Of a stretch of 22,529 nt of DNA, positions 13,676-22,044 are shown piece by piece; the first letter of the stretch is position 1; every line of letters begins with the position of its first letter. Source of the stretch: a virus (lineage: Duplodnaviria; Heunggongvirae; Uroviricota; Caudoviricetes); IMG/VR virus record IMGVR_UViG_3300029417_000071; one strand, given 5' to 3'. The notes under the pieces are model-generated. The model did no database searches and had not been told where the DNA came from. It saw nothing but the letters and a program-made list of their open reading frames with translations. A program made the translations under genes and the position numbers.

Positions 13676-13702
13676 TATGGATAAATTTTATTATTGAATA
13701 CA

Positions 13703-13876
13703 TCAGATTAAATTAATCTTGACATCATAGCTTTCAAGACCCGTCATTTTTTCCCGTGCGGTAAACTGAATACTGGTAACTTCTTTCCCGGTCTTTTTCT
13801 TAAGTTCAATAATTTTTTTTGTTATATATTCAGAAATATCTGCTTCTGCTTTTGTTTTTAAGTTTTCAATATTCAT
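13703..13876 (-). CDS. gnsB: GnsB (GnsA/GnsB family small protein)
   Basis: Hand-translated 57-58 aa: (M)MNIENLKTKAEADISEYITKKIIELKKKTGKEVTSIQFTAREKMTGLESYDVKINLI, closely resembling the GnsA/GnsB family; below the track threshold; tandem ATG at 13879/13876. Confidence 0.75.
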   Translation of the reverse strand: MNIENLKTKAEADISEYITKKIIELKKKTGKEVTSIQFTAREKMTGLESYDVKINLI

Positions 13877-14047
13877 CATTTCCTCTTTTAGTCTGTTATG
13901 ACTTTCCAGTTACACAGTAAGTCGATTATATGGTGCAAACGTGTAAAAGATAAGATGAAACATCGCAATAATCAACATACGATAGTCTAAATTTTACACA
14001 AACAGACAAAGAGAATTTTCCTGAATTATCAATACAATAGCATCAAA

Positions 14048-14278
14048 TCAACTCAAGAGCCTTATTGCTGCTTCCAGAATTTCTTCTGAAGTAACATGTC
14101 GATCCGCGGCTACATAAATGACTTTATGATCTCCGGTCAGAGATGGAAACCCTGCGGCCATTACAGTAAGGTGTGTTTTTTCGCCATTTGGATATTCACG
14201 CATGATGGTGTTAACTCCAGTCATCGCTGGCACTACCACTGCTGGTTCAGAGTTAAAAAAAACTATGATTTTTTTCAT
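14048..14278 (-). CDS. hypothetical protein (YnfN-like by position between gnsB and cspI)
   Basis: Track ORF 14048..14320 starts at TTG; the first ATG is at 14278 (MKKIIVFFNSEPAVVVPAMTGVNTIMREYPNGEK...). It sits directly downstream of the cspI terminator. Confidence 0.45.
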   Translation of the reverse strand: MKKIIVFFNSEPAVVVPAMTGVNTIMREYPNGEKTHLTVMAAGFPSLTGDHKVIYVAADRHVTSEEILEAAIRLLS

Positions 14279-14321
14279 GATGTTACCGTAGTATGTGAGT
14301 ATCCATCGAATAGATACCAAG

Positions 14322-14350
14322 CAAAAAAGCTCCCGAAGGAGCCTTCATTT
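14322..14350 (-). terminator. intrinsic terminator after cspI
   Basis: Minus strand reads GCTCC TTCG GGAGC followed by TTTTTTGC (plus about 14329-14342 with A-run 14323-14328). Confidence 0.6.
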
Positions 14351-14549
14351 TCACTTTTTTAAATCCAACGACAGACGGCTGGCATTTAAGTATTGTGAAA
14401 TATTATCAAATGTAATCATCATTGATTTACAAAAGATACATTTTGCCCCGAAAGGATTCATGTCAGAAACATCAAAAGATGATGTTCTATACTGGGAACC
14501 ATGACAACACGGGCATCTAAAGTGAATATGGTTTGTAATATTGTCTACC

Positions 14550-14762
14550 TCAAAGCGCCACTACATGAACAGCGGCAGGACCTTTAGGTCCGTTCTCAAT
14601 ACCAAATTCAACTTCCTGATTCTCAGTTAATGTTTTGAAATCGTTGCTCTGAATTGCTGAGAAATGGACAAACACATCTTTGCTGCCATCTTTCGGCGTG
14701 ATGAAACCAAAACCTTTTTCAGGGTTAAACCATTTCACTAAACCAGTCATTTTGTTAGACAT
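14550..14762 (-). CDS. cspI: cold shock protein CspI
   Basis: 70 aa [70 protein letters not shown]; canonical cold-shock domain with RNP motifs; long AT-rich 5' leader (14763-15125). Confidence 0.9.
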
Positions 14763-15125
14763 AATTATTACCTTTTGAAGAAATTAGCCCTTGGGCAGAA
14801 TGGTCCGAAAAAAAATATCAGAGAGAAAAACCAACAAGGAAATCTCAAGAGGTACAAATAATAAAATTATAACAATGACTGCTTCAGATAAATTTGTAAC
14901 AAACCAGAACACCATTAACGCATGATTAACCACCCATAGCAAGGATTACTTTTGTAAAGAAAAACACAGCAATGAAAGAATAGCTTTATTTATTAATAAT
15001 AACGTGTCATTCTGATTAAGACCTTTTATCTTACCCTTAAGATTTCAGGAATTTTGGCTCATGGAAGAGTCCTTTTTATTTAAATTTTACATTCCGCGAT
15101 GTAAATGTTCCGATTTAATATTACC

Positions 15126-16153: not shown

Positions 16154-16437
16154 ATATATTTATGATGAGGACGCTCGTGCTTATTGGCAGGATTTTCAAT
16201 CTTAAAGGAGTACTGATGCTGCAGATAAGACTCAACTTTTTCTGACAATTTTTCTGCTACTTCCAGGAAGACTTGCCGGACGCTCCTTCTGGCTGCTGCC
16301 TCATAAAACTCCAGCGCAGCTCCTTCAACACGGTCCATGGCGACATCCAGGTCAAAAATTTCACCGTCAAAGCGTTCTTTGTCCTGTAAGGCTACAGTTA
16401 CCGTAACTTTATTCTCAAAATTACGGACTCCTTTCAC
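16150..16437 (-). CDS. hypothetical protein between holin and endolysin (YdfR-like)
   Basis: Track ORF of 95 aa with a non-ATG first codon; acidic; same position as ydfR in Qin; start uncertain. Confidence 0.5.
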
Positions 16438-16465
16438 AACCAGTTCATAGTCTTGAGTCGTTGGA

Positions 16466-16681
16466 TTACTCTCCTCTCGCAGCCTTACGCCTGTCTTCTT
16501 TAATCTTGAAATAAAGATTTGTCAGATACGTCAGCAGGCCAAAAACCAGGCTACCCAGCACACCGATTGCAGCCCACTGTGACGGAGTTACTTTATCGAG
16601 TAACTGCAATGCCCAGAAACCAGCATTACCCGCCGATGTGCCATAGGCAACACCTGTTGTTAACTTATCCATTGATTTCAT
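16466..16681 (-). CDS. essQ: pinholin (phage 21 S21-like class II holin) with dual-start motif
   Basis: Track ORF 16466..16756; Met26 at 16681 gives 71 aa [71 protein letters not shown], near-identical in pattern to S21; Met1/Met4 dual start; SD GGTGAGG. Confidence 0.85.
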
Positions 16682-16900
16682 ATCCTCACCCCGATGTACA
16701 CGGATGGTGCAATATGTTTGAAAAGATCGGAGTCTACGGGGTAGTTTTGACAGCACACGTTGTTCTCAACGGCGCTAAAAAAACATACACATTAAAAATG
16801 TGGGTAATTATTTTGAAAGAAAGTCATATATAAAATAATAATACGAGAAATGTTTTCATATTTAGTGTACTGTATACGGCCATTTATACAGGAAAAGCCT

Positions 16901-17071
16901 ATGTCAGAACGTAAAAACTCAAAATCACGCCGTAATTATCTCGTTAAATGTTCCTGCCCAAACTGCACCCAAGAGTCAGAACACAGTTTTTCAAGAGTAC
17001 AAAAAGGTGCCCTTTTGATCTGCCCTCATTGCAACAAAGTATTCCAGACAAATCTTAAAGCTGTAGCCTGA
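16901..17071 (+). CDS. ynfU: small zinc-ribbon protein (56 aa), possibly YnfU-like
   Basis: Track ORF 16850..17071; ATG at 16901 with SD AGGAAAAG; MSERKNSKSRRNYLVKCSCPNCTQESEHSFSRVQKGALLICPHCNKVFQTNLKAVA with CxCxxC...CxxC. The symbol is from memory of Qin small proteins and is tentative. Confidence 0.5.
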   Translation: MSERKNSKSRRNYLVKCSCPNCTQESEHSFSRVQKGALLICPHCNKVFQTNLKAVA

Positions 17072-17130
17072 TTGATTTTATTAGTAACAAGTATTTTTTA
17101 TATTTTAATAATATATTTAAAGCAGATAAT

Positions 17131-17156
17131 AAAAAACCCGCCTGAGCGGGTTTGAG
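17131..17156. terminator. bidirectional intrinsic terminator (cspB on minus, zinc-ribbon gene on plus)
   Basis: CCCGC ctga GCGGG flanked by an A-run on plus (T-run on minus, TTTTTTATTAT) and TTTG on plus. Confidence 0.6.
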
Positions 17157-17434
17157 ATTGTGGTGCTTTTTGTGGGAGTCATCCACTTACGCACTTTGTT
17201 TTGCCATGCCAGCAGTTAGCTTCTGCTGTAAAACTATTCATGCAGCAAACCTGCACTTCACCACAATGGTTAGCATACTTTTCCTGATTAAGATTTTGCC
17301 AAATATGCTAGCCATTGTTTCATGTATTGGACCTCCTTACTTTTTATTAAAGAGATCCAATATTCACTACTCTGTCCGTATCTCTACTCAGGCATCAGCC
17401 TTCTTCGTTATCGTATACAGACGAGCGATGAATT

Positions 17435-17650
17435 TTAATCAGTAATGATGACATTTGCTGCTGCAGGACCTTTAGCACCACTCTCTATAGAGAAGGTAAC
17501 CTTTTGACCTTCAAATAAGGTTCGATAATTATCATTCTGAATCGCAGAAAAATGCACAAACACATCTTTACTACCATCAACAGGAGAAATAAAGCCGAAA
17601 CCTTTATCAGCGTTAAACCATTTTACTAAACCAGTCATTTTATTTGACAT
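17435..17650 (-). CDS. cspB: cold shock protein CspB
   Basis: 71 aa [71 protein letters not shown]. Confidence 0.9.
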
Positions 17651-17950
17651 TCTACATTCCTTAACTTGAGCCTTTCGGCATAAATGGTTTGCATAACAGA
17701 AACGACTTCGTACTTAATTGGAGAGACTCAAAGAAGGAATAAGTGAATAACACCTGAAATGAGAACTGCTTTAGTAAACTACTTCGTATATCGTCTGTTC
17801 TTCAAACCGACGCAATCATTAACGCATAGTTGAACATATGAAGCAATGTTTATTTTAGACATCCAGCCATCTTCAACCCCATCAAAAAACTATAGCTTTC
17901 TTCAGGAACGTGTGTATAGTGCGCCAAGTTATCAGTATTAAGGAATTTTT

Positions 17951-18163
17951 TTGTCCCGTAAAATGACAGGAATTGTCAAAACCTTTGACGGCAAAAGCGG
18001 CAAGGGTCTTATCACCCCATCCGATGGTCGTATCGATGTCCAGCTTCATGTTTCAGCGCTCAATCTCCGCGATGCAGAAGAAATTACCACCGGATTACGC
18101 GTGGAATTTTGCCGGATAAATGGTCTGCGTGGCCCTTCAGCTGCCAATGTTTACCTTTCATGA
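17951..18163 (+). CDS. cspF: cold shock protein family member CspF/CspH-like
   Basis: 70 aa [70 protein letters not shown]; a divergent CSD lacking the canonical aromatic RNP residues; divergent from cspB. Confidence 0.85.
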
Positions 18164-18217
18164 GCTATATTAAAGCTTTAATTTCAGGCCCCATCGGATC
18201 ACACATGGAGAGTTTTT

Positions 18218-18307
18218 ATGAATAACCCCGTCTGTCTTGATGACTGGTTGATTGGCTTTAAAAGCTTATGCTGTACTTTGGCCGTAATAGCTCTGCTAAT
18301 AATATAA
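18218..18307 (+). CDS. candidate small hydrophobic peptide (29 aa)
   Basis: Hand-translated [29 protein letters not shown]; SD GGAGAG about 6 nt upstream; between cspF and the Q-proximal terminator; below the track threshold. Confidence 0.25.
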
Positions 18308-18447
18308 TAAGCAGACTCATTGTGTTTAGGGACATTGTACTGGAAGAAAATATTTTAAACATCAGGCAAATAACCAAGTCACCAGCTAAATAATAAGTTA
18401 ACAGACATGAGTCCCGGGATGAGATTCAACATTACCATTGCCCCATT

Positions 18448-18482
18448 TAAAGCACAAAACCCGCTCATCAGCGGGTTTTCTA
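18448..18482. terminator. bidirectional intrinsic terminator (tR'-like for the short late transcript on minus; cspF terminator on plus)
   Basis: CCCGCT catc AGCGGG with TTTTCTACTTTTTC on plus and TTTTGTGCTTT on minus. Confidence 0.6.
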
Positions 18483-18515
18483 CTTTTTCTTAACGTCGGG
18501 TATACAAAGCCCATC

Positions 18516-18553
18516 GTTGAAAAAATTTTATCCATATTTTTTGAAAAATGCAA
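18516..18553 (-). promoter_or_regulatory. putative late promoter PR' (Q-utilization region)
   Basis: On minus: -35 TTGCAT (18553-18548), 17-nt spacer, -10 TAAAAT (18530-18525). It lies about 30 nt downstream of the Q stop and about 65 nt upstream of the terminator, the lambda PR'/qut/tR' layout. Confidence 0.45.
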
Positions 18554-18584
18554 ACATCATGTCGCCATCTTCAGCAAAAATCAT

Positions 18585-19337
18585 TTATCTCGTCACCTTC
18601 CTCAATTGCGCTTCCGCGTATGCTTCTTCCTGCCAGCACTTTGTTACCAGTTTATCAATGACGTCCGCATACCCCTTATACCACTGATAATCGGTCAGGT
18701 CTGGTACCAGCTTCTGGACATGACGTCGTGCCAGCGTGGTCGGTAAACGACTAAATCGGTTTCCATTACAACGCCCACAAATCTTATATACCGGTACGCC
18801 ATGAAACCGGGTTCTTTTTTCATCCAGAACAATCCCTTTACCCTTACACCCTCTGCACGCTGTGCTGACTTCGCCCTTACCATGGCAATGCTGACATAGT
18901 TCCTTCACCCATTCTTCCTTGATTACAGATTCCCCGCGTCTGTAGTGTTTCACCACTTCGCGCAATACATTATAAAATCCCGTACCTGAACAATGCTCAC
19001 AGCGAGCCTTACTTGCCGCAGACCTGGAGTAATCAGCAAAGGCAAAATTCACAAGGTAAGGAATAATCTGTAACCGGATTTCTTCACTCAATTTGTTCAA
19101 TGTCGGGTTATCCAGTGCCATCGCGTAATTTAGCAGGCCTTCAATCGCAAACTGAGGGTCCTGAACACCAACTTTTGCCAGAAATAAGGCCAACCCAAGT
19201 GGTGCTTTCGACTGCACCATCCCCTGCGCTGCCATTACATCCGTAATTGTTAAACAACCGGTGCCTGTCGCTGGAGCGTCATCGCTCAATTTTGGAGATT
19301 TTGGGGAGTAATATTTTGGTAAGGCTTCAAGGTTCAT
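18585..19337 (-). CDS. quuQ: late antiterminator Q
   Basis: 250 aa; Cys-rich zinc-binding region CEHCSGTGF...CQHCHGKGE...CRGCKGKG...CGRCNGN; position immediately upstream of PR' and the lysis genes. Confidence 0.85.
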   Translation of the reverse strand: MNLEALPKYYSPKSPKLSDDAPATGTGCLTITDVMAAQGMVQSKAPLGLALFLAKVGVQDPQFAIEGLLNYAMALDNPTLNKLSEEIRLQIIPYLVNFAFADYSRSAASKARCEHCSGTGFYNVLREVVKHYRRGESVIKEEWVKELCQHCHGKGEVSTACRGCKGKGIVLDEKRTRFHGVPVYKICGRCNGNRFSRLPTTLARRHVQKLVPDLTDYQWYKGYADVIDKLVTKCWQEEAYAEAQLRKVTR

Positions 19338-19350
19338 GCTCGTTCTCCAC

Positions 19351-20400
19351 TTACGCCAGTACGCCAGTTGCCAGCGCGCGATCGATAAAACGAAATATCA
19401 GCTCCAGTTGGGAGCCATACTTCTCTTCAAATGCCACTGTATCCGTATGCAGCTCGTTGTGATGCTTTCTGCACAAAGGCAACACAAAGAGATCATGTGC
19501 TTTTGTTCCCATTCCGCCCTGCCCGTGACCAATCAGATGATGCGGATCGTCGGCTGGCATACCGCAGCAAGCACACGGCTGTGTCTTAACCCAACGAGTG
19601 TATTTCTCCTTAACCCAGCGGCGACGTTTAGGCAGCTTCATGAAAGATTCCGGAGACTCTGGATCAACGGTGATGCTTACCACCGTCTTTTCCTGTGGTG
19701 GTTTTTGTTGCTGGTGGGCGTAAGGCAACGGTGCAAGATTTTCTGTGCGTTGTTTCAATATGCTGGTGGCGGTCTGCTCTCCCTGTACGATGTCGCTTTC
19801 GCGGTACACCGAGCAGATTTTTTCCGCTGGTAATCCCAGCGAACGACGCGATACAGCCTCAGGTAGTGCATCCACCACCTGATTGCAGACCGCCCACCAG
19901 GATAATTCAGCCAAAGATAATTCCCGCTCCTGCGTACCGCTTATTGCGTGACGGATGACGTCAATCACCCATGCTGTCAGATTTTGTTGAGCAAGCAGCT
20001 CCAGTGATTCCGATGTCTGGTCACGCAGTTGGTTGTCGCAGTGCCAGCACAACACCATTGCGCCGGTACCATAACGGTGAATGACTGTTTCAGTGTGATG
20101 GTAATCGCCATTAGGCCACTGGCAGGATGTAACATGACGTAATAGCCAGTCAGACAATGCGCCAACGCCGCCAGTAGCACGAATCACCCGTTCGTTACTA
20201 AAAAACGGCAGCAATGTTTTGTCTTCTGCCAGCGGCTGGCGAACGGCAGGAACGACTCCGGATGGCAGATTTCGCATGCTTTTTGGTTCCGGTTCCACCA
20301 GCACTCGAGGATTATGAAATATCTGTATGGATTCACGGCCCGGCTTAAGGACCACCAGCCCAAGCTCAGGCACCAGAACAGGTCTAAGTAATACCCGCAC
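19351..20400 (-). CDS. ydfU: DUF968 protein YdfU-like with C-terminal HNH-like Cys/His motif
   Basis: Track ORF 19351..20439; GTG at 20400 has a perfect SD GGAGGT 5 nt upstream that overlaps the stop of the upstream gene, giving 349 aa. C-terminus QPCACCGMPADDPHHLIGHGQGG...PLCRKHHNELH. Confidence 0.75.
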   Translation of the reverse strand: MRVLLRPVLVPELGLVVLKPGRESIQIFHNPRVLVEPEPKSMRNLPSGVVPAVRQPLAEDKTLLPFFSNERVIRATGGVGALSDWLLRHVTSCQWPNGDYHHTETVIHRYGTGAMVLCWHCDNQLRDQTSESLELLAQQNLTAWVIDVIRHAISGTQERELSLAELSWWAVCNQVVDALPEAVSRRSLGLPAEKICSVYRESDIVQGEQTATSILKQRTENLAPLPYAHQQQKPPQEKTVVSITVDPESPESFMKLPKRRRWVKEKYTRWVKTQPCACCGMPADDPHHLIGHGQGGMGTKAHDLFVLPLCRKHHNELHTDTVAFEEKYGSQLELIFRFIDRALATGVLA

Positions 20401-21214: not shown

Positions 21215-21370
21215 TTACTCCTCAGGTTCGTAAGCTGTGAAGACAGCGACCTCCGTCTGGCCGGTTCGGATTCGTACCTCGCAGAGGTCTTTCCTCGTTA
21301 CCAGTGCCGTCACTATGACGGTTAAACAGATGACGATCAGGGCGATTAACATCGCCTTTTGCTGCTTCAT
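21215..21370 (-). CDS. hokD: Hok-family type I toxin HokD (RelF)
   Basis: Track ORF 21215..21427; Met20 at 21370 gives 51 aa MKQQKAMLIALIVICLTVIVTALVTRKDLCEVRIRTGQTEVAVFTAYEPEE; SD AAGGAG; followed by a hok-mRNA-like 3' stem-loop GGCGAGGGA tttc TCCCTCGCC (about 21186-21207). Confidence 0.85.
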   Translation of the reverse strand: MKQQKAMLIALIVICLTVIVTALVTRKDLCEVRIRTGQTEVAVFTAYEPEE

Positions 21371-22044
21371 AGCCTGCTTCTCCTTGCCTTTCGGCTCGTA
21401 AGAGGCTAACCTACATGTGTCTAGCATGAAATTGGCCTCAGATTAATGTTAAGCGTCTTGCAGGACGCGTAATGTTAACTGGGGCTTTTCTCTATCTGCC
21501 TTTGGTGTTCATGCCCGAGGCAGATAGCCTCAAGCACCCGCAGCCATTCTACTTAACTACCGTTACCTCGCCAATATGAAATCAGTCAGAAAGGCGATCC
21601 ATAAGAACAATAGCAAGACAATAAATCGCCATTACAGCCGTAATAGCCAGCGCACATTTGAGAACCAGCACCACAACCTCCTGTATTGGACGTAGACCAG
21701 TCCTGATGAATATGAGGCTGTCTCGTCAGTGATTCAATACAACTATTGGGTATAGTTTCTCTGATTTTTTCTGTGGAAATGGGGCACAACCACTAGTCAC
21801 CACCAGCACTTCTTTTAATACGCAAAGTCCGACACAAGCTAACCTTCTAGTCCGCTTTGAGCGAAAAACAGCCATAATTTAGTGCCACGTATATAATGAT
21901 AGAGCTATTCAAGCTAGCAATTCACATGTAAAAATTCAGAGGGTAGAAGCACATAGTTATAAATGTTGGCTCCATCGACAAATTGCGGTCTCAAGTACAT
22001 TTATTAATGTTGCCCCCGCATTAACAAATCATCAAGGTGACGAC

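What the first reader, a model, noticed from the sequence alone, without database searches (positions are those of the whole stretch)
17100..18500. Cold-shock gene pair cspB/cspF sits between the Q-dependent late promoter and the lysis cassette
The late transcript from the PR'-like promoter (about 18517, minus) must cross the tR'-like terminator, read antisense through cspF, sense through cspB, and cross the cspB terminator before reaching the holin at 16681. Each csp gene has its own long AT-rich leader. Cold-shock protein expression is therefore physically intertwined with the lysis timing genes. CspF also lacks the canonical RNP aromatic residues ([14 protein letters not shown] instead of KWFN.KGFGFI).
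Basis: partly seen in the sequence, partly recalled or inferred. Interest (0 to 1): 0.45.

Follow-up and report, generated by a model that had tools for sequence, protein, structure and literature searches.

The report
Cold-shock cargo genes in prophage late operon
The window is a Qin-type lambda-like prophage of E. coli in which the known cold-shock genes cspB and cspF sit as self-contained passenger genes between the late promoter and the lysis genes, an arrangement already annotated in E. coli K-12 and ordinary for this kind of phage.

Summary
cspB (17435-17650, -) and cspF (17951-18163, +) lie between a lambda-family Q gene (18585-19337, -) and a phage-21-type holin (16466-16681, -). The late promoter can be placed by homology to lambda PR': -35 TTGCAT, -10 TAAAAT, +1 at 18518, and the same AACGATGGG start as lambda. 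A strong tR' hairpin follows at 18479-18456.

This is the Qin prophage layout. It is 99.7% identical to K-12 and present in about 1,600 of 5,426 complete E. coli genomes and in viable phages (2H10, PhiR42_1). Sibling phages share the same Q-PR'-tR' module but carry other cargo in this slot: stx2c with tRNAs, a methylase, or an esterase.

The csp pair is a portable unit. It also occurs beside the integrase of phage PHB10 and as chromosomal cspG-cspH. cspF is a pseudogene in the viable phage Tritos. The late transcript almost certainly crosses the pair, but nothing points to a dedicated link with lysis timing.

Two details need correcting:
- cspF has room only for a short leader.

CspF's missing aromatic residues are already published. 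Verdict: already known, low interest.

The parts
18585..19337 (-). Late-gene antiterminator Q (ydfT/quuQ), lambda-Q family, with an extra DnaJ-type CxxCxGxG zinc-finger insertion
   Evidence: Pfam PF03589 E=8e-55 and PF00684 E=8e-9. Lambda Q structure 7UBM matches at E=6e-37 in two blocks, flanking an insertion of about 40 aa. Annotated as ydfT antitermination protein.
18525..18553 (-). PR'-type late promoter: -35 TTGCAT (18553-18548), 17-bp spacer, -10 TAAAAT (18530-18525)
   Evidence: Found by the consensus scan. Same architecture as lambda PR' (TTGACT, 17 bp, TAAATT). Almost invariant in six phages and prophages. The core motif occurs once in the window and 0 times in 100 shuffles.
18510..18518 (-). 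Predicted +1 (18518) and initial transcribed AACGATGGG. This is identical to lambda PR' +1..+9, which holds the -10-like sigma70 pause element AACGAT
   Evidence: Direct comparison of lambda 44587 onward with the window. The pause function is from my own knowledge of lambda and was not tested here.
18445..18479 (-). tR'-type intrinsic terminator: 10-bp GC-rich stem at 18479-18456, then TTTTGTGCTTT. It also scores as a terminator on the + strand, facing cspF-ynfS
   Evidence: Terminator scan. The fold of the 74-nt leader is -30.4 kcal/mol, z = -6.7. Annotated as a terminator in phages SfV and Ayreon. Homology to sibling phages ends just after its T-tract.
18218..18307 (+). ynfS, a 29-aa small membrane protein gene, antisense to the late transcript
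   Evidence: Pfam YnfS PF23697 E=5e-23. Annotated. Synthesis shown by epitope tagging in K-12 (PMC6001520). Deleted in phage Tritos.
17951..18163 (+). cspF, a divergent cold-shock-domain protein lacking the RNP aromatic residues. TTG start; antisense to the late transcript
   Evidence: Pfam CSD E=6e-22. Alignment with CspA, CspB, CspI, CspG and CspH. PDB CspA and CspE match at about 1e-12. It is a pseudogene in phage Tritos.
17915..17920 (+). Conserved -10-like TATAGT upstream of cspF, the candidate cspF promoter. It implies a leader of only about 25 nt
   Evidence: Conserved in the Qin, PHB10 and chromosomal cspG-cspH copies of the pair. Sequence shown. Promoter activity not tested.
17818..17846 (-). 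cspB promoter of cspA type: -35 TTGCTT (17846-17841), 17 bp, -10 GTTAAT (17823-17818)
   Evidence: Read from the sequence. It lies immediately upstream of the Rfam cspA-thermoregulator match, which starts at 17811. Conserved in the cspG and PHB10 copies. The comparison with the cspA promoter is from memory.
17651..17811 (-). cspB 5'UTR, a cspA-type RNA thermosensor
   Evidence: Rfam RF01766 at 17811-17419, 158.8 bits against a gathering score of 78, E=6e-42.
17435..17650 (-). cspB, a canonical CspA-family cold-shock protein, in sense with the late transcript
   Evidence: Pfam CSD E=1e-31. 80% identical to CspA with all RNP residues present. Annotated as cspB.
17154..17434 (-). Long, highly structured cspB 3'UTR with three long hairpins. 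Unannotated and single-copy
   Evidence: Fold gives -105.2 kcal/mol against -70.3 +/- 5.3 for shuffles, z = -6.6. Four of four substitutions at paired positions in hairpin 1 of phage 2H10 keep pairing. One place per genome and no annotation.
17128..17153 (-). cspB intrinsic terminator: 8-bp stem with 5 GC pairs, then a T-run
   Evidence: Terminator scan and fold.
16901..17071 (+). ynfU, a 56-aa putative zinc-ribbon protein, antisense to the late transcript. Its candidate promoter is at 16813-16842 (+)
   Evidence: Pfam YnfU PF23499 E=4e-31. Annotated. The best promoter-like match in the region, 10 of 12, is at 16813-16842.
16466..16681 (-). Phage-21-type holin (essQ/essD) with an MKSM dual-start motif. 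It is the first gene of the lysis cassette (holin, ydfR, lysozyme, Rz)
   Evidence: Pfam PF04971 E=4e-34. Annotated. No promoter region is conserved with other phages carrying this holin.
14523..14908 (-). cspI with its own cspA-type 5'UTR, on the far side of the lysis cassette and in the same orientation as cspB
   Evidence: Rfam RF01766 at 112.8 bits. Pfam CSD E=2e-31. Annotated.

Best explanation
The window is an apparently intact Qin-type (mEp460-like) lambdoid prophage of E. coli. Its late operon is controlled as in lambda.

Late control (inferred from lambda):
- A lambda-family Q protein is encoded just upstream of a constitutive PR'-type promoter with +1 at about 18518.
- Without Q, transcripts from that promoter should stop at tR' after about 65-70 nt.
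- With Q, RNA polymerase should become terminator-resistant and read through to the holin and on to the morphogenesis genes.

The cargo slot:
- The 1.75 kb between tR' and the holin ribosome-binding site is the usual cargo ('moron') slot of lambdoid phages.
- Here it holds four small passenger genes. cspB has its own cspA-type promoter, a 161-nt thermosensor leader, a long structured 3'UTR and its own terminator.
- cspF, ynfS and ynfU sit on the opposite strand.
- cspB is therefore expressed autonomously from the repressed prophage on cold shock.

Consequences during lytic growth:
- The Q-modified late transcript also copies cspB in sense, and cspF, ynfS and ynfU in antisense.
- This follows from where the cargo landed. 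It is not a dedicated timing device.

Shown here: the identities, coordinates, module boundaries, portability of the pair and dispensability of cspF. Inferred: promoter activity, Q-dependent read-through and its effects on csp expression.
For: Identity of the region:
- The window is 100% identical over 22.45 kb to many E. coli chromosomes. There it is annotated as a complete prophage between pinQ/tfaQ and integrase/rspB.
- The 3-kb Q-to-holin segment is 99.7% identical to K-12-like strains. It covers at least 80% of the query in 1,608 of 5,426 genomes.
- The same arrangement occurs in sequenced phages PhiR42_1, 2H10, HannyBb and PhiR63_1.
- The structural genes are 96-99% identical to those of viable phages.

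Late control module:
- Q belongs to the lambda Q family.
- PR' matches lambda PR' in layout and shares the AACGATGGG start.
- The tR' hairpin is strong.

Cargo slot:
- Homology with SfV, Ayreon, mEp460, Stx2c phages and an O157-type prophage (about 91%) stops right after tR'.
- Their slots hold orf47 plus a methylase, or a lipoprotein, methylase, two tRNAs and stx2cAB, or a SASA esterase.
- Homology on the holin side starts about 20 nt before the ATG.

cspB autonomy: Rfam thermoregulator match at 158.8 bits, plus its own terminator.

Portability: the 0.74-kb divergent pair, including its intergenic region, recurs next to the integrase of phage PHB10 and as chromosomal cspG-cspH.

Dispensability: in phage Tritos, cspF has lost its start and is frameshifted, and its 3' end plus ynfS are deleted. 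cspB and its leader are untouched there.

Precedents for antisense cargo: lambda bor and DLP12 nmpC.

Literature: papers already list cspB and cspF as Qin prophage genes acquired horizontally (PMC6379469; PMC5493296).
Against: - No transcript data were available. PR' activity, termination at tR' and Q-dependent read-through across 1.8 kb and two terminators are inferred by homology only.
- Two cspA-type genes bracket the lysis cassette in the sense orientation, cspB upstream and cspI downstream. cspB is perfectly conserved even where cspF has decayed. This could mean the phage benefits from them during lytic growth.
- cspF, cspH and cspI respond to DNA damage in K-12 (PMC11228462). That response is unexplained and could reflect prophage-linked regulation.
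Confidence: 0.8

Rival explanations
1. The csp genes are a working part of the late programme. Q-driven read-through delivers CspB (and CspI) as RNA chaperones or antiterminators that help late gene expression or lysis, especially at low temperature. Antisense transcription meanwhile shuts off cspF, ynfS and ynfU.
For: - cspB and cspI are both in sense with the late transcript and bracket the lysis cassette.
- cspB plus its leader is 100% conserved in Tritos although the neighbouring cspF has decayed.
- The arrangement persists in viable phages.
- CspA-family proteins are reported to act as transcription antiterminators (cited in PMC11228462; also from my own knowledge).
Against: - Sibling phages with the same Q-PR'-tR' module and related lysis genes carry no csp genes in the slot.
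- The pair also lives outside any late operon.
- cspB keeps a full autonomous promoter, thermosensor and terminator.
- No experimental link was found in the searched literature.
Confidence: 0.12
2. Cold shock couples directly to lysis without Q. The very strong cold-induced cspB promoter, helped by Csp-mediated antitermination, leaks through the cspB terminator into the holin 450 nt downstream.
For: cspB, its terminator and the holin are co-oriented, with only the antisense ynfU between them. No other evidence was found.
Against: - The cspB terminator is a canonical strong hairpin plus T-run.
- K-12 and about 1,600 other genomes tolerate the arrangement.
- No report of cold-induced essQ or rrrQ expression was found.
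Confidence: 0.05
3. The late transcript does not cross the csp genes. The lysis genes use a separate promoter downstream of cspB, or PR' is inactive in this prophage.
For: A weak promoter-like match (9 of 12) lies at 16834-16807 (-), upstream of the holin. An AT-rich region gives many such matches.
Against: - That match is no better than chance: 10 were found against 6.8 +/- 2.2 expected.
- It lies in sequence not conserved with other phages carrying the same holin.
- PR' is intact, lambda-like and nearly invariant in six phages, some of them viable.
Confidence: 0.04

Closest known systems
Qin cryptic prophage of E. coli K-12 (essQ - ynfU - cspB - cspF - ynfS - quuQ/ydfT)
   Same: Gene order, orientation and sequence are the same: 99.7% identity over 16400-19400, with the same protein accessions for CspB, CspF, YnfU and the holin.
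   Different: K-12 Qin is truncated, with no terminase-to-tail genes and a disrupted integrase. The window's prophage keeps the full morphogenesis module and lies in a record with an intact integrase and excisionase.
Lambda late control region (Q - PR' - 6S RNA/tR' - S)
   Same: Same Q family. Same promoter layout: -35, 17 bp, -10, 6 nt, then AACGATGGG at +1. Both have a terminator before the lysis genes, and both have antisense cargo next to the lysis genes (bor).
   Different: - The leader RNA is about 65-70 nt here against 194 nt in lambda.
- PR'-to-holin distance is 1.84 kb here against 0.6 kb.
- Q carries an extra zinc-finger insertion.
- The holin is of the phage 21 type, not the lambda S type.
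Stx2c-converting phages, SfV, mEp460, Ayreon (same Q-PR'-tR' module, other cargo)
   Same: About 91% nucleotide identity across ydfU-Q-PR'-tR'. The cargo is inserted at the same point, just after tR'.
   Different: The cargo there is stx2cAB with tRNAs and a methylase, or a methylase with small ORFs, all in sense with the late transcript. Here the cargo is cold-shock and small-protein genes, three of four antisense.
Chromosomal cspH-cspG locus of E. coli, and the csp pair of phage PHB10
   Same: Same divergent two-gene unit, with a roughly 300-bp shared control region, conserved promoter elements and a TTG start for the CspF-like gene.
   Different: Neither lies in a late operon. cspG-cspH sits between appA and yccM with no Q or lysis genes. 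The PHB10 pair sits next to the integrase and umuDC.
DLP12 prophage (quuD - nmpC - essD)
   Same: Cargo in the Q-to-holin slot is oriented against the late transcript, and the holin is nearly identical.
   Different: The Q type differs: it is 127 aa, and the PR' motif of this window is absent. The cargo is a porin gene interrupted by IS5.

Membership tests
Lambda-type Q/PR'/tR' late-control module | Q protein homologous to lambda Q | tested here: met
   PF03589 E=8e-55. Lambda Q structure 7UBM matches at E=6e-37 over both halves.
Lambda-type Q/PR'/tR' late-control module | Sigma70 promoter directly downstream of Q, with a -10-like pause element in the initial transcribed region | tested here: met
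   TTGCAT, 17 bp, TAAAAT, 6 nt, then AACGATGGG. The last nine bases are identical to lambda +1..+9. This is sequence evidence only.
Lambda-type Q/PR'/tR' late-control module | Intrinsic terminator between PR' and the late genes | tested here: met
   10-bp stem plus T-tract at 18479-18445. The leader folds at -30.4 kcal/mol, z = -6.7. Annotated as a terminator in SfV and Ayreon.
Lambda-type Q/PR'/tR' late-control module | Q-binding element between -35 and -10 | tested here: inconclusive
   The 17-bp spacer matches lambda's at 11 of 17 positions by eye. No binding-site model was available.
Lambda-type Q/PR'/tR' late-control module | Q-dependent read-through of downstream terminators in vivo | not testable with these tools
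   Needs transcript mapping with and without Q.
Prophage moron (autonomous cargo transcription unit) | Lies between genes that are adjacent or differently separated in related phages | tested here: met
   Homology with sibling phages breaks right after tR' and resumes about 20 nt before the holin. The slot content differs among phages.
Prophage moron (autonomous cargo transcription unit) | Own promoter and own terminator | tested here: met
   For cspB: a cspA-type promoter and 5'UTR (Rfam 158.8 bits) and a terminator. For cspF, ynfS and ynfU there are only candidate promoters.
Prophage moron (autonomous cargo transcription unit) | Base composition differs from the surrounding phage genes | tested here: met
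   The non-coding segments of the slot are 63-65% A+T against 51% for the window.
Prophage moron (autonomous cargo transcription unit) | Expressed from the repressed prophage | not tested
   Papers report cold induction of cspB in K-12, which carries defective Qin (reference list; PMC9947658). Nothing was measured here.
CspA family of cold-shock proteins | Cold-shock domain (OB fold) of about 70 aa | tested here: met
   PF00313: CspB E=1e-31, CspF E=6e-22. PDB CspA and CspE match CspF at about 1e-12.
CspA family of cold-shock proteins | RNP1 (KGFGFI) and RNP2 (VFVHF) aromatic nucleic-acid-binding residues | tested here: not met
   Met for CspB, not met for CspF. In CspF, W11T, F18K, F20L, F31Q and F34V are changed, and only F12 and H33 are kept. 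CspF is a cold-shock-domain protein but not a canonical RNA chaperone, as already published (PMC10819108).
CspA family of cold-shock proteins | Long cspA-type thermosensing 5'UTR | tested here: not met
   Met for cspB and cspI (Rfam RF01766). For cspF there is no Rfam match even at E<=1 and room for only a short leader.

The most novel reading that the evidence does not exclude
The two cspA-type genes that bracket the lysis cassette in the sense orientation, cspB upstream and cspI downstream, may be more than passive cargo.

First, they may be delivered by the late transcript to support late expression or lysis in the cold.

Second, they form direct repeats across which the lysis cassette can be deleted. 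The chromosomal cspH-cspG-ymcF-ymcE-gnsA locus looks like the product of such an event. cspG resembles cspB up to about nt 70 of the coding sequence and resembles cspI beyond that. The locus is flanked by the cspF-like and ynfQ/ynfN/gnsB-like partners. If so, core E. coli cold-shock genes would be domesticated phage cargo.
Probability: 0.15. Interest if true: 0.5.

Novelty: already known. Interest (0 to 1): 0.12.

Why it matters
It matters little beyond annotation. The finding restates the known Qin prophage layout and the known oddity of CspF.

The second look adds three things:
- A base-accurate placement of the Qin-type PR', the pause element and tR' by homology to lambda.
- A clear definition of the cargo slot boundaries.
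- Evidence that the csp pair is a portable unit, not part of lysis control.

If the side observation about cspG being a cspB/cspI chimera holds, it would say something about how phage cargo becomes core stress-response genes. That is a modest evolutionary point, not a new mechanism.

Tried and rejected
- **Recent cspB x cspI recombinants.** I searched 5,426 E. coli genomes with a synthetic junction query for recombinants that would have deleted the lysis cassette. No place covered 80% or more of the query.
- **Further RNA families.** A permissive Rfam search of 16400-18700 found only the cspA thermoregulator above threshold. The rest were sub-threshold chance-level hits.
- **tRNA genes in the slot.** Stx phages have them there. 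None were found in the 2H10, Tritos or HannyBb versions of this slot, and the window-wide Rfam scan reported none.
- **A conserved holin-proximal promoter.** I aligned holin-upstream regions from four contexts and found none.
- **A coding ORF in the cspB 3'UTR.** An 11-codon ORF (17323-17288, -) follows a perfect Shine-Dalgarno sequence. It is probably not coding: the Shine-Dalgarno sequence is one arm of a 14-bp hairpin, and the few substitutions are non-synonymous.
- **A repeat element in the cspB 3'UTR.** It is single-copy.
- **Literature on Qin late transcription, quuQ, or cold-induced essQ.** Nothing relevant turned up.
- **Python access to loci.** Several fetched loci were not visible to the Python sandbox, so I made those comparisons with the alignment tool.
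Full report
**What is there**

ORF listing and Pfam scans identify the following genes:
- cspB at 17435-17650 (-), CSD domain E=1e-31.
- cspF at 17951-18163 (+), TTG start, CSD domain E=6e-22.
- An antiterminator Q at 18585-19337 (-), PF03589 E=8e-55.
- A phage-21-type holin at 16466-16681 (-), PF04971.

ynfS is at 18218-18307 (+) and ynfU at 16901-17071 (+). YnfS synthesis has been shown in K-12, where it is listed between cspF and ydfT (PMC6001520).

**Where it comes from**

The 3-kb segment 16400-19400 is 99.7% identical to K-12-like strains. There it is annotated as the Qin prophage genes essD/essQ, ynfU, cspB, cspF and ydfT. At least 80% of the segment is present in 1,608 of 5,426 complete E. 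coli genomes.

The window is 100% identical over 22.45 kb to many non-K-12 chromosomes. In those the prophage is complete, from tail fibres and terminase to integrase next to rspB. Its structural genes are 96-99% identical to viable mEp460-like phages. The exact Q-cspF-cspB-holin arrangement occurs in the sequenced phages PhiR42_1, 2H10, HannyBb and PhiR63_1.

**The late promoter and terminator**

Q matches lambda Q (PDB 7UBM) at E=6e-37 in two blocks. These flank an insertion of about 40 aa that carries an extra DnaJ-type zinc finger.

Downstream of the Q stop codon the minus strand reads TTGCAT, 17 bp, TAAAAT, TTTTTC, AACGATGGGC. Lambda PR' reads TTGACT, 17 bp, TAAATT, TGACTC, AACGATGGGT, with its start at 44587. 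By this homology:
- +1 is 18518.
- The -35 is 18553-18548 and the -10 is 18530-18525.
- AACGAT corresponds to the sigma70 pause-inducing element of lambda. That function is from my own knowledge and was not tested.

The stretch from the Q stop to +16 is almost invariant in six phages and prophages. Its core motif occurs once in each of nine loci with this Q type and once in the window, against 0 in 100 shuffles.

A 10-bp GC-rich hairpin at 18479-18456 plus a T-tract follows. The 74-nt leader folds at -30.4 kcal/mol, z = -6.7. The same feature is annotated as a terminator in SfV and Ayreon. The hairpin also scores as a terminator on the + strand, so it may also end the cspF-ynfS transcript.

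**The slot is a cargo slot**

Megablast matches to SfV, mEp460, Ayreon, Stx2c phages and an O157-type prophage (about 91%) all begin at window 18456. The alignment shows identity collapsing a few bases after the tR' T-tract. Downstream of this shared module the phages differ:
- SfV and Ayreon carry small ORFs, a DNA methylase and further annotated terminators.
- A Stx2c phage carries a lipoprotein, a methylase, two tRNAs and stx2cAB.
- An STEC prophage carries a SASA-family esterase.

On the other side, homology between holin-upstream regions from four contexts begins only about 20 nt before the holin ATG. There is therefore no conserved holin promoter. The lysis genes depend on transcription coming from upstream.

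For comparison:
- Lambda has 0.6 kb between PR' and S, and carries bor antisense after Rz.
- DLP12 has the porin gene nmpC antisense between quuD and essD.

Crossing terminators and antisense cargo is thus normal for lambdoid late operons.

**The csp genes as autonomous units**

Rfam's cspA thermoregulator matches 17811-17419 at 158.8 bits against a gathering score of 78. It also matches the cspI leader at 14908-14523 at 112.8 bits. A cspA-like promoter lies just upstream of cspB: TTGCTT at 17846-17841 and GTTAAT at 17823-17818. cspB ends with a canonical terminator at 17153-17128. cspB therefore has everything needed for independent cold induction, as reported for K-12 (PMC9947658).

cspF has no cspA-type leader. 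There is no Rfam hit even at E<=1. Only about 105 bp separate the cspB -35 from the cspF start. The only conserved element in that space is a -10-like TATAGT at 17915-17920.

**CspF residues**

Alignment with CspA (sequence confirmed against PDB 2L15), CspB, CspI, CspG and CspH shows W11T, F18K, F20L, F31Q and F34V in CspF. This is correct but published. CspF and CspH are described as lacking the RNP aromatic residues and as being of unknown function (PMC6719143; PMC10819108; PMC9947658).

**Is there functional coupling to lysis?**

The evidence argues against a dedicated link.
- The divergent pair, with its roughly 300-bp control region, is a portable 0.74-kb unit.
- It recurs next to the integrase and umuDC of phage PHB10 and as chromosomal cspG-cspH between appA and yccM.
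- In the viable phage Tritos, cspF has lost its TTG start and carries a 1-nt deletion.
- Tritos also lacks 258 bp that cover the cspF 3' end and ynfS, while cspB and its leader are 100% conserved.
- CspF-like genes are rare in sequenced phages: 14 records.

No paper in the searched library reports Qin late transcription, or cold induction of essQ or rrrQ. Several papers simply list cspB and cspF as Qin genes acquired horizontally. Read-through remains an inference from homology.

**Side observations**

- *cspG looks chimeric.* It resembles cspB in its promoter, 5'UTR and first 70 nt or so of coding sequence, and resembles cspI beyond that.
  - The maximum chi-square breakpoint has 83/35 cspB-like/cspI-like sites on the left and 27/59 on the right. 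None of 2,000 permutations reached it.
  - Its neighbours cspH, ymcF, ymcE and gnsA parallel cspF, ynfQ, ynfN and gnsB.
  - This fits an old deletion of ynfU and the lysis cassette by cspB x cspI recombination.
  - No recent event of this kind exists in 5,426 genomes.
- *The cspB 3'UTR is unusual.* It runs 17434-17154, is unannotated and single-copy, and is very structured (z = -6.6).

**Verdict**

The arrangement is already known, so interest is low.

Noticed in passing
window 14450-15125 and 17330-17950, compared with L008:3300-3900: Chromosomal cspG looks like a cspB/cspI chimera. It is cspB-like upstream and through about nt 70 of the coding sequence, and cspI-like beyond. Its locus (cspH-cspG-ymcF-ymcE-gnsA) parallels cspF-cspB ... 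cspI-ynfQ-ynfN-gnsB with ynfU and the lysis cassette removed. No recent recombinant was found in 5,426 genomes.
   Followed up: partly
window 17154-17434 (-): The cspB 3'UTR of about 280 nt is unannotated, single-copy and very structured: -105.2 kcal/mol, z = -6.6, three long hairpins. One hairpin sequesters a perfect TAAGGAGGT (17339-17331) in front of an 11-codon ORF, MKQWLAYLAKS (17323-17288), which is probably not coding.
   Followed up: partly
L011:1541-2245 (phage Tritos), compared with window 17640-18600: In the viable phage Tritos, cspF is a pseudogene (TTG to CTG, 1-nt deletion). A 258-bp deletion also removes its 3' end and ynfS. cspB, PR' and tR' are intact.
   Followed up: yes
window 18456-18479: The tR' hairpin also scores as an intrinsic terminator on the + strand. 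It could end the convergent cspF-ynfS transcript and shield Q from antisense transcription.
   Followed up: no
window 18585-19337 (-): Relative to lambda Q, this Q carries an insertion of about 40 aa (roughly residues 121-159). It lies within the region matched by the DnaJ-type CxxCxGxG zinc-finger domain, PF00684.
   Followed up: no
L013:3490-4220 (phage PHB10): A homologous divergent csp pair (cspB-like and CspF-like, 64% aa identity to CspF) sits next to the integrase, an SOS-response peptidase and umuDC. It is not in the late operon.
   Followed up: yes
L012:2430-4180 (phage HannyBb; also PhiR63_1): About 1.7 kb of extra DNA lies between the Q stop codon and the single PR' copy. Q is therefore separated from its promoter in these phages.
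   Followed up: partly
window 21365-21539 (-): Rfam sok antitoxin RNA matches at 116 bits, next to hokD. The hok/sok module of this prophage looks complete at the RNA level.
   Followed up: no
window 13700-14908 (-): Downstream of the lysis cassette lies a second block of cold-related cargo, in sense with the late transcript: cspI with its own thermosensor leader, ynfQ (a ymcF-like cold-shock small protein), ynfR, ynfN and gnsB.
   Followed up: partly
window 16400-19400, compared with NZ_CP063515.1: In strain EH01-18-04-A the otherwise identical 3-kb segment is split by an IS200C insertion. The match comes in two pieces spanning 3.7 kb, with tnpA annotated under it.
   Followed up: no
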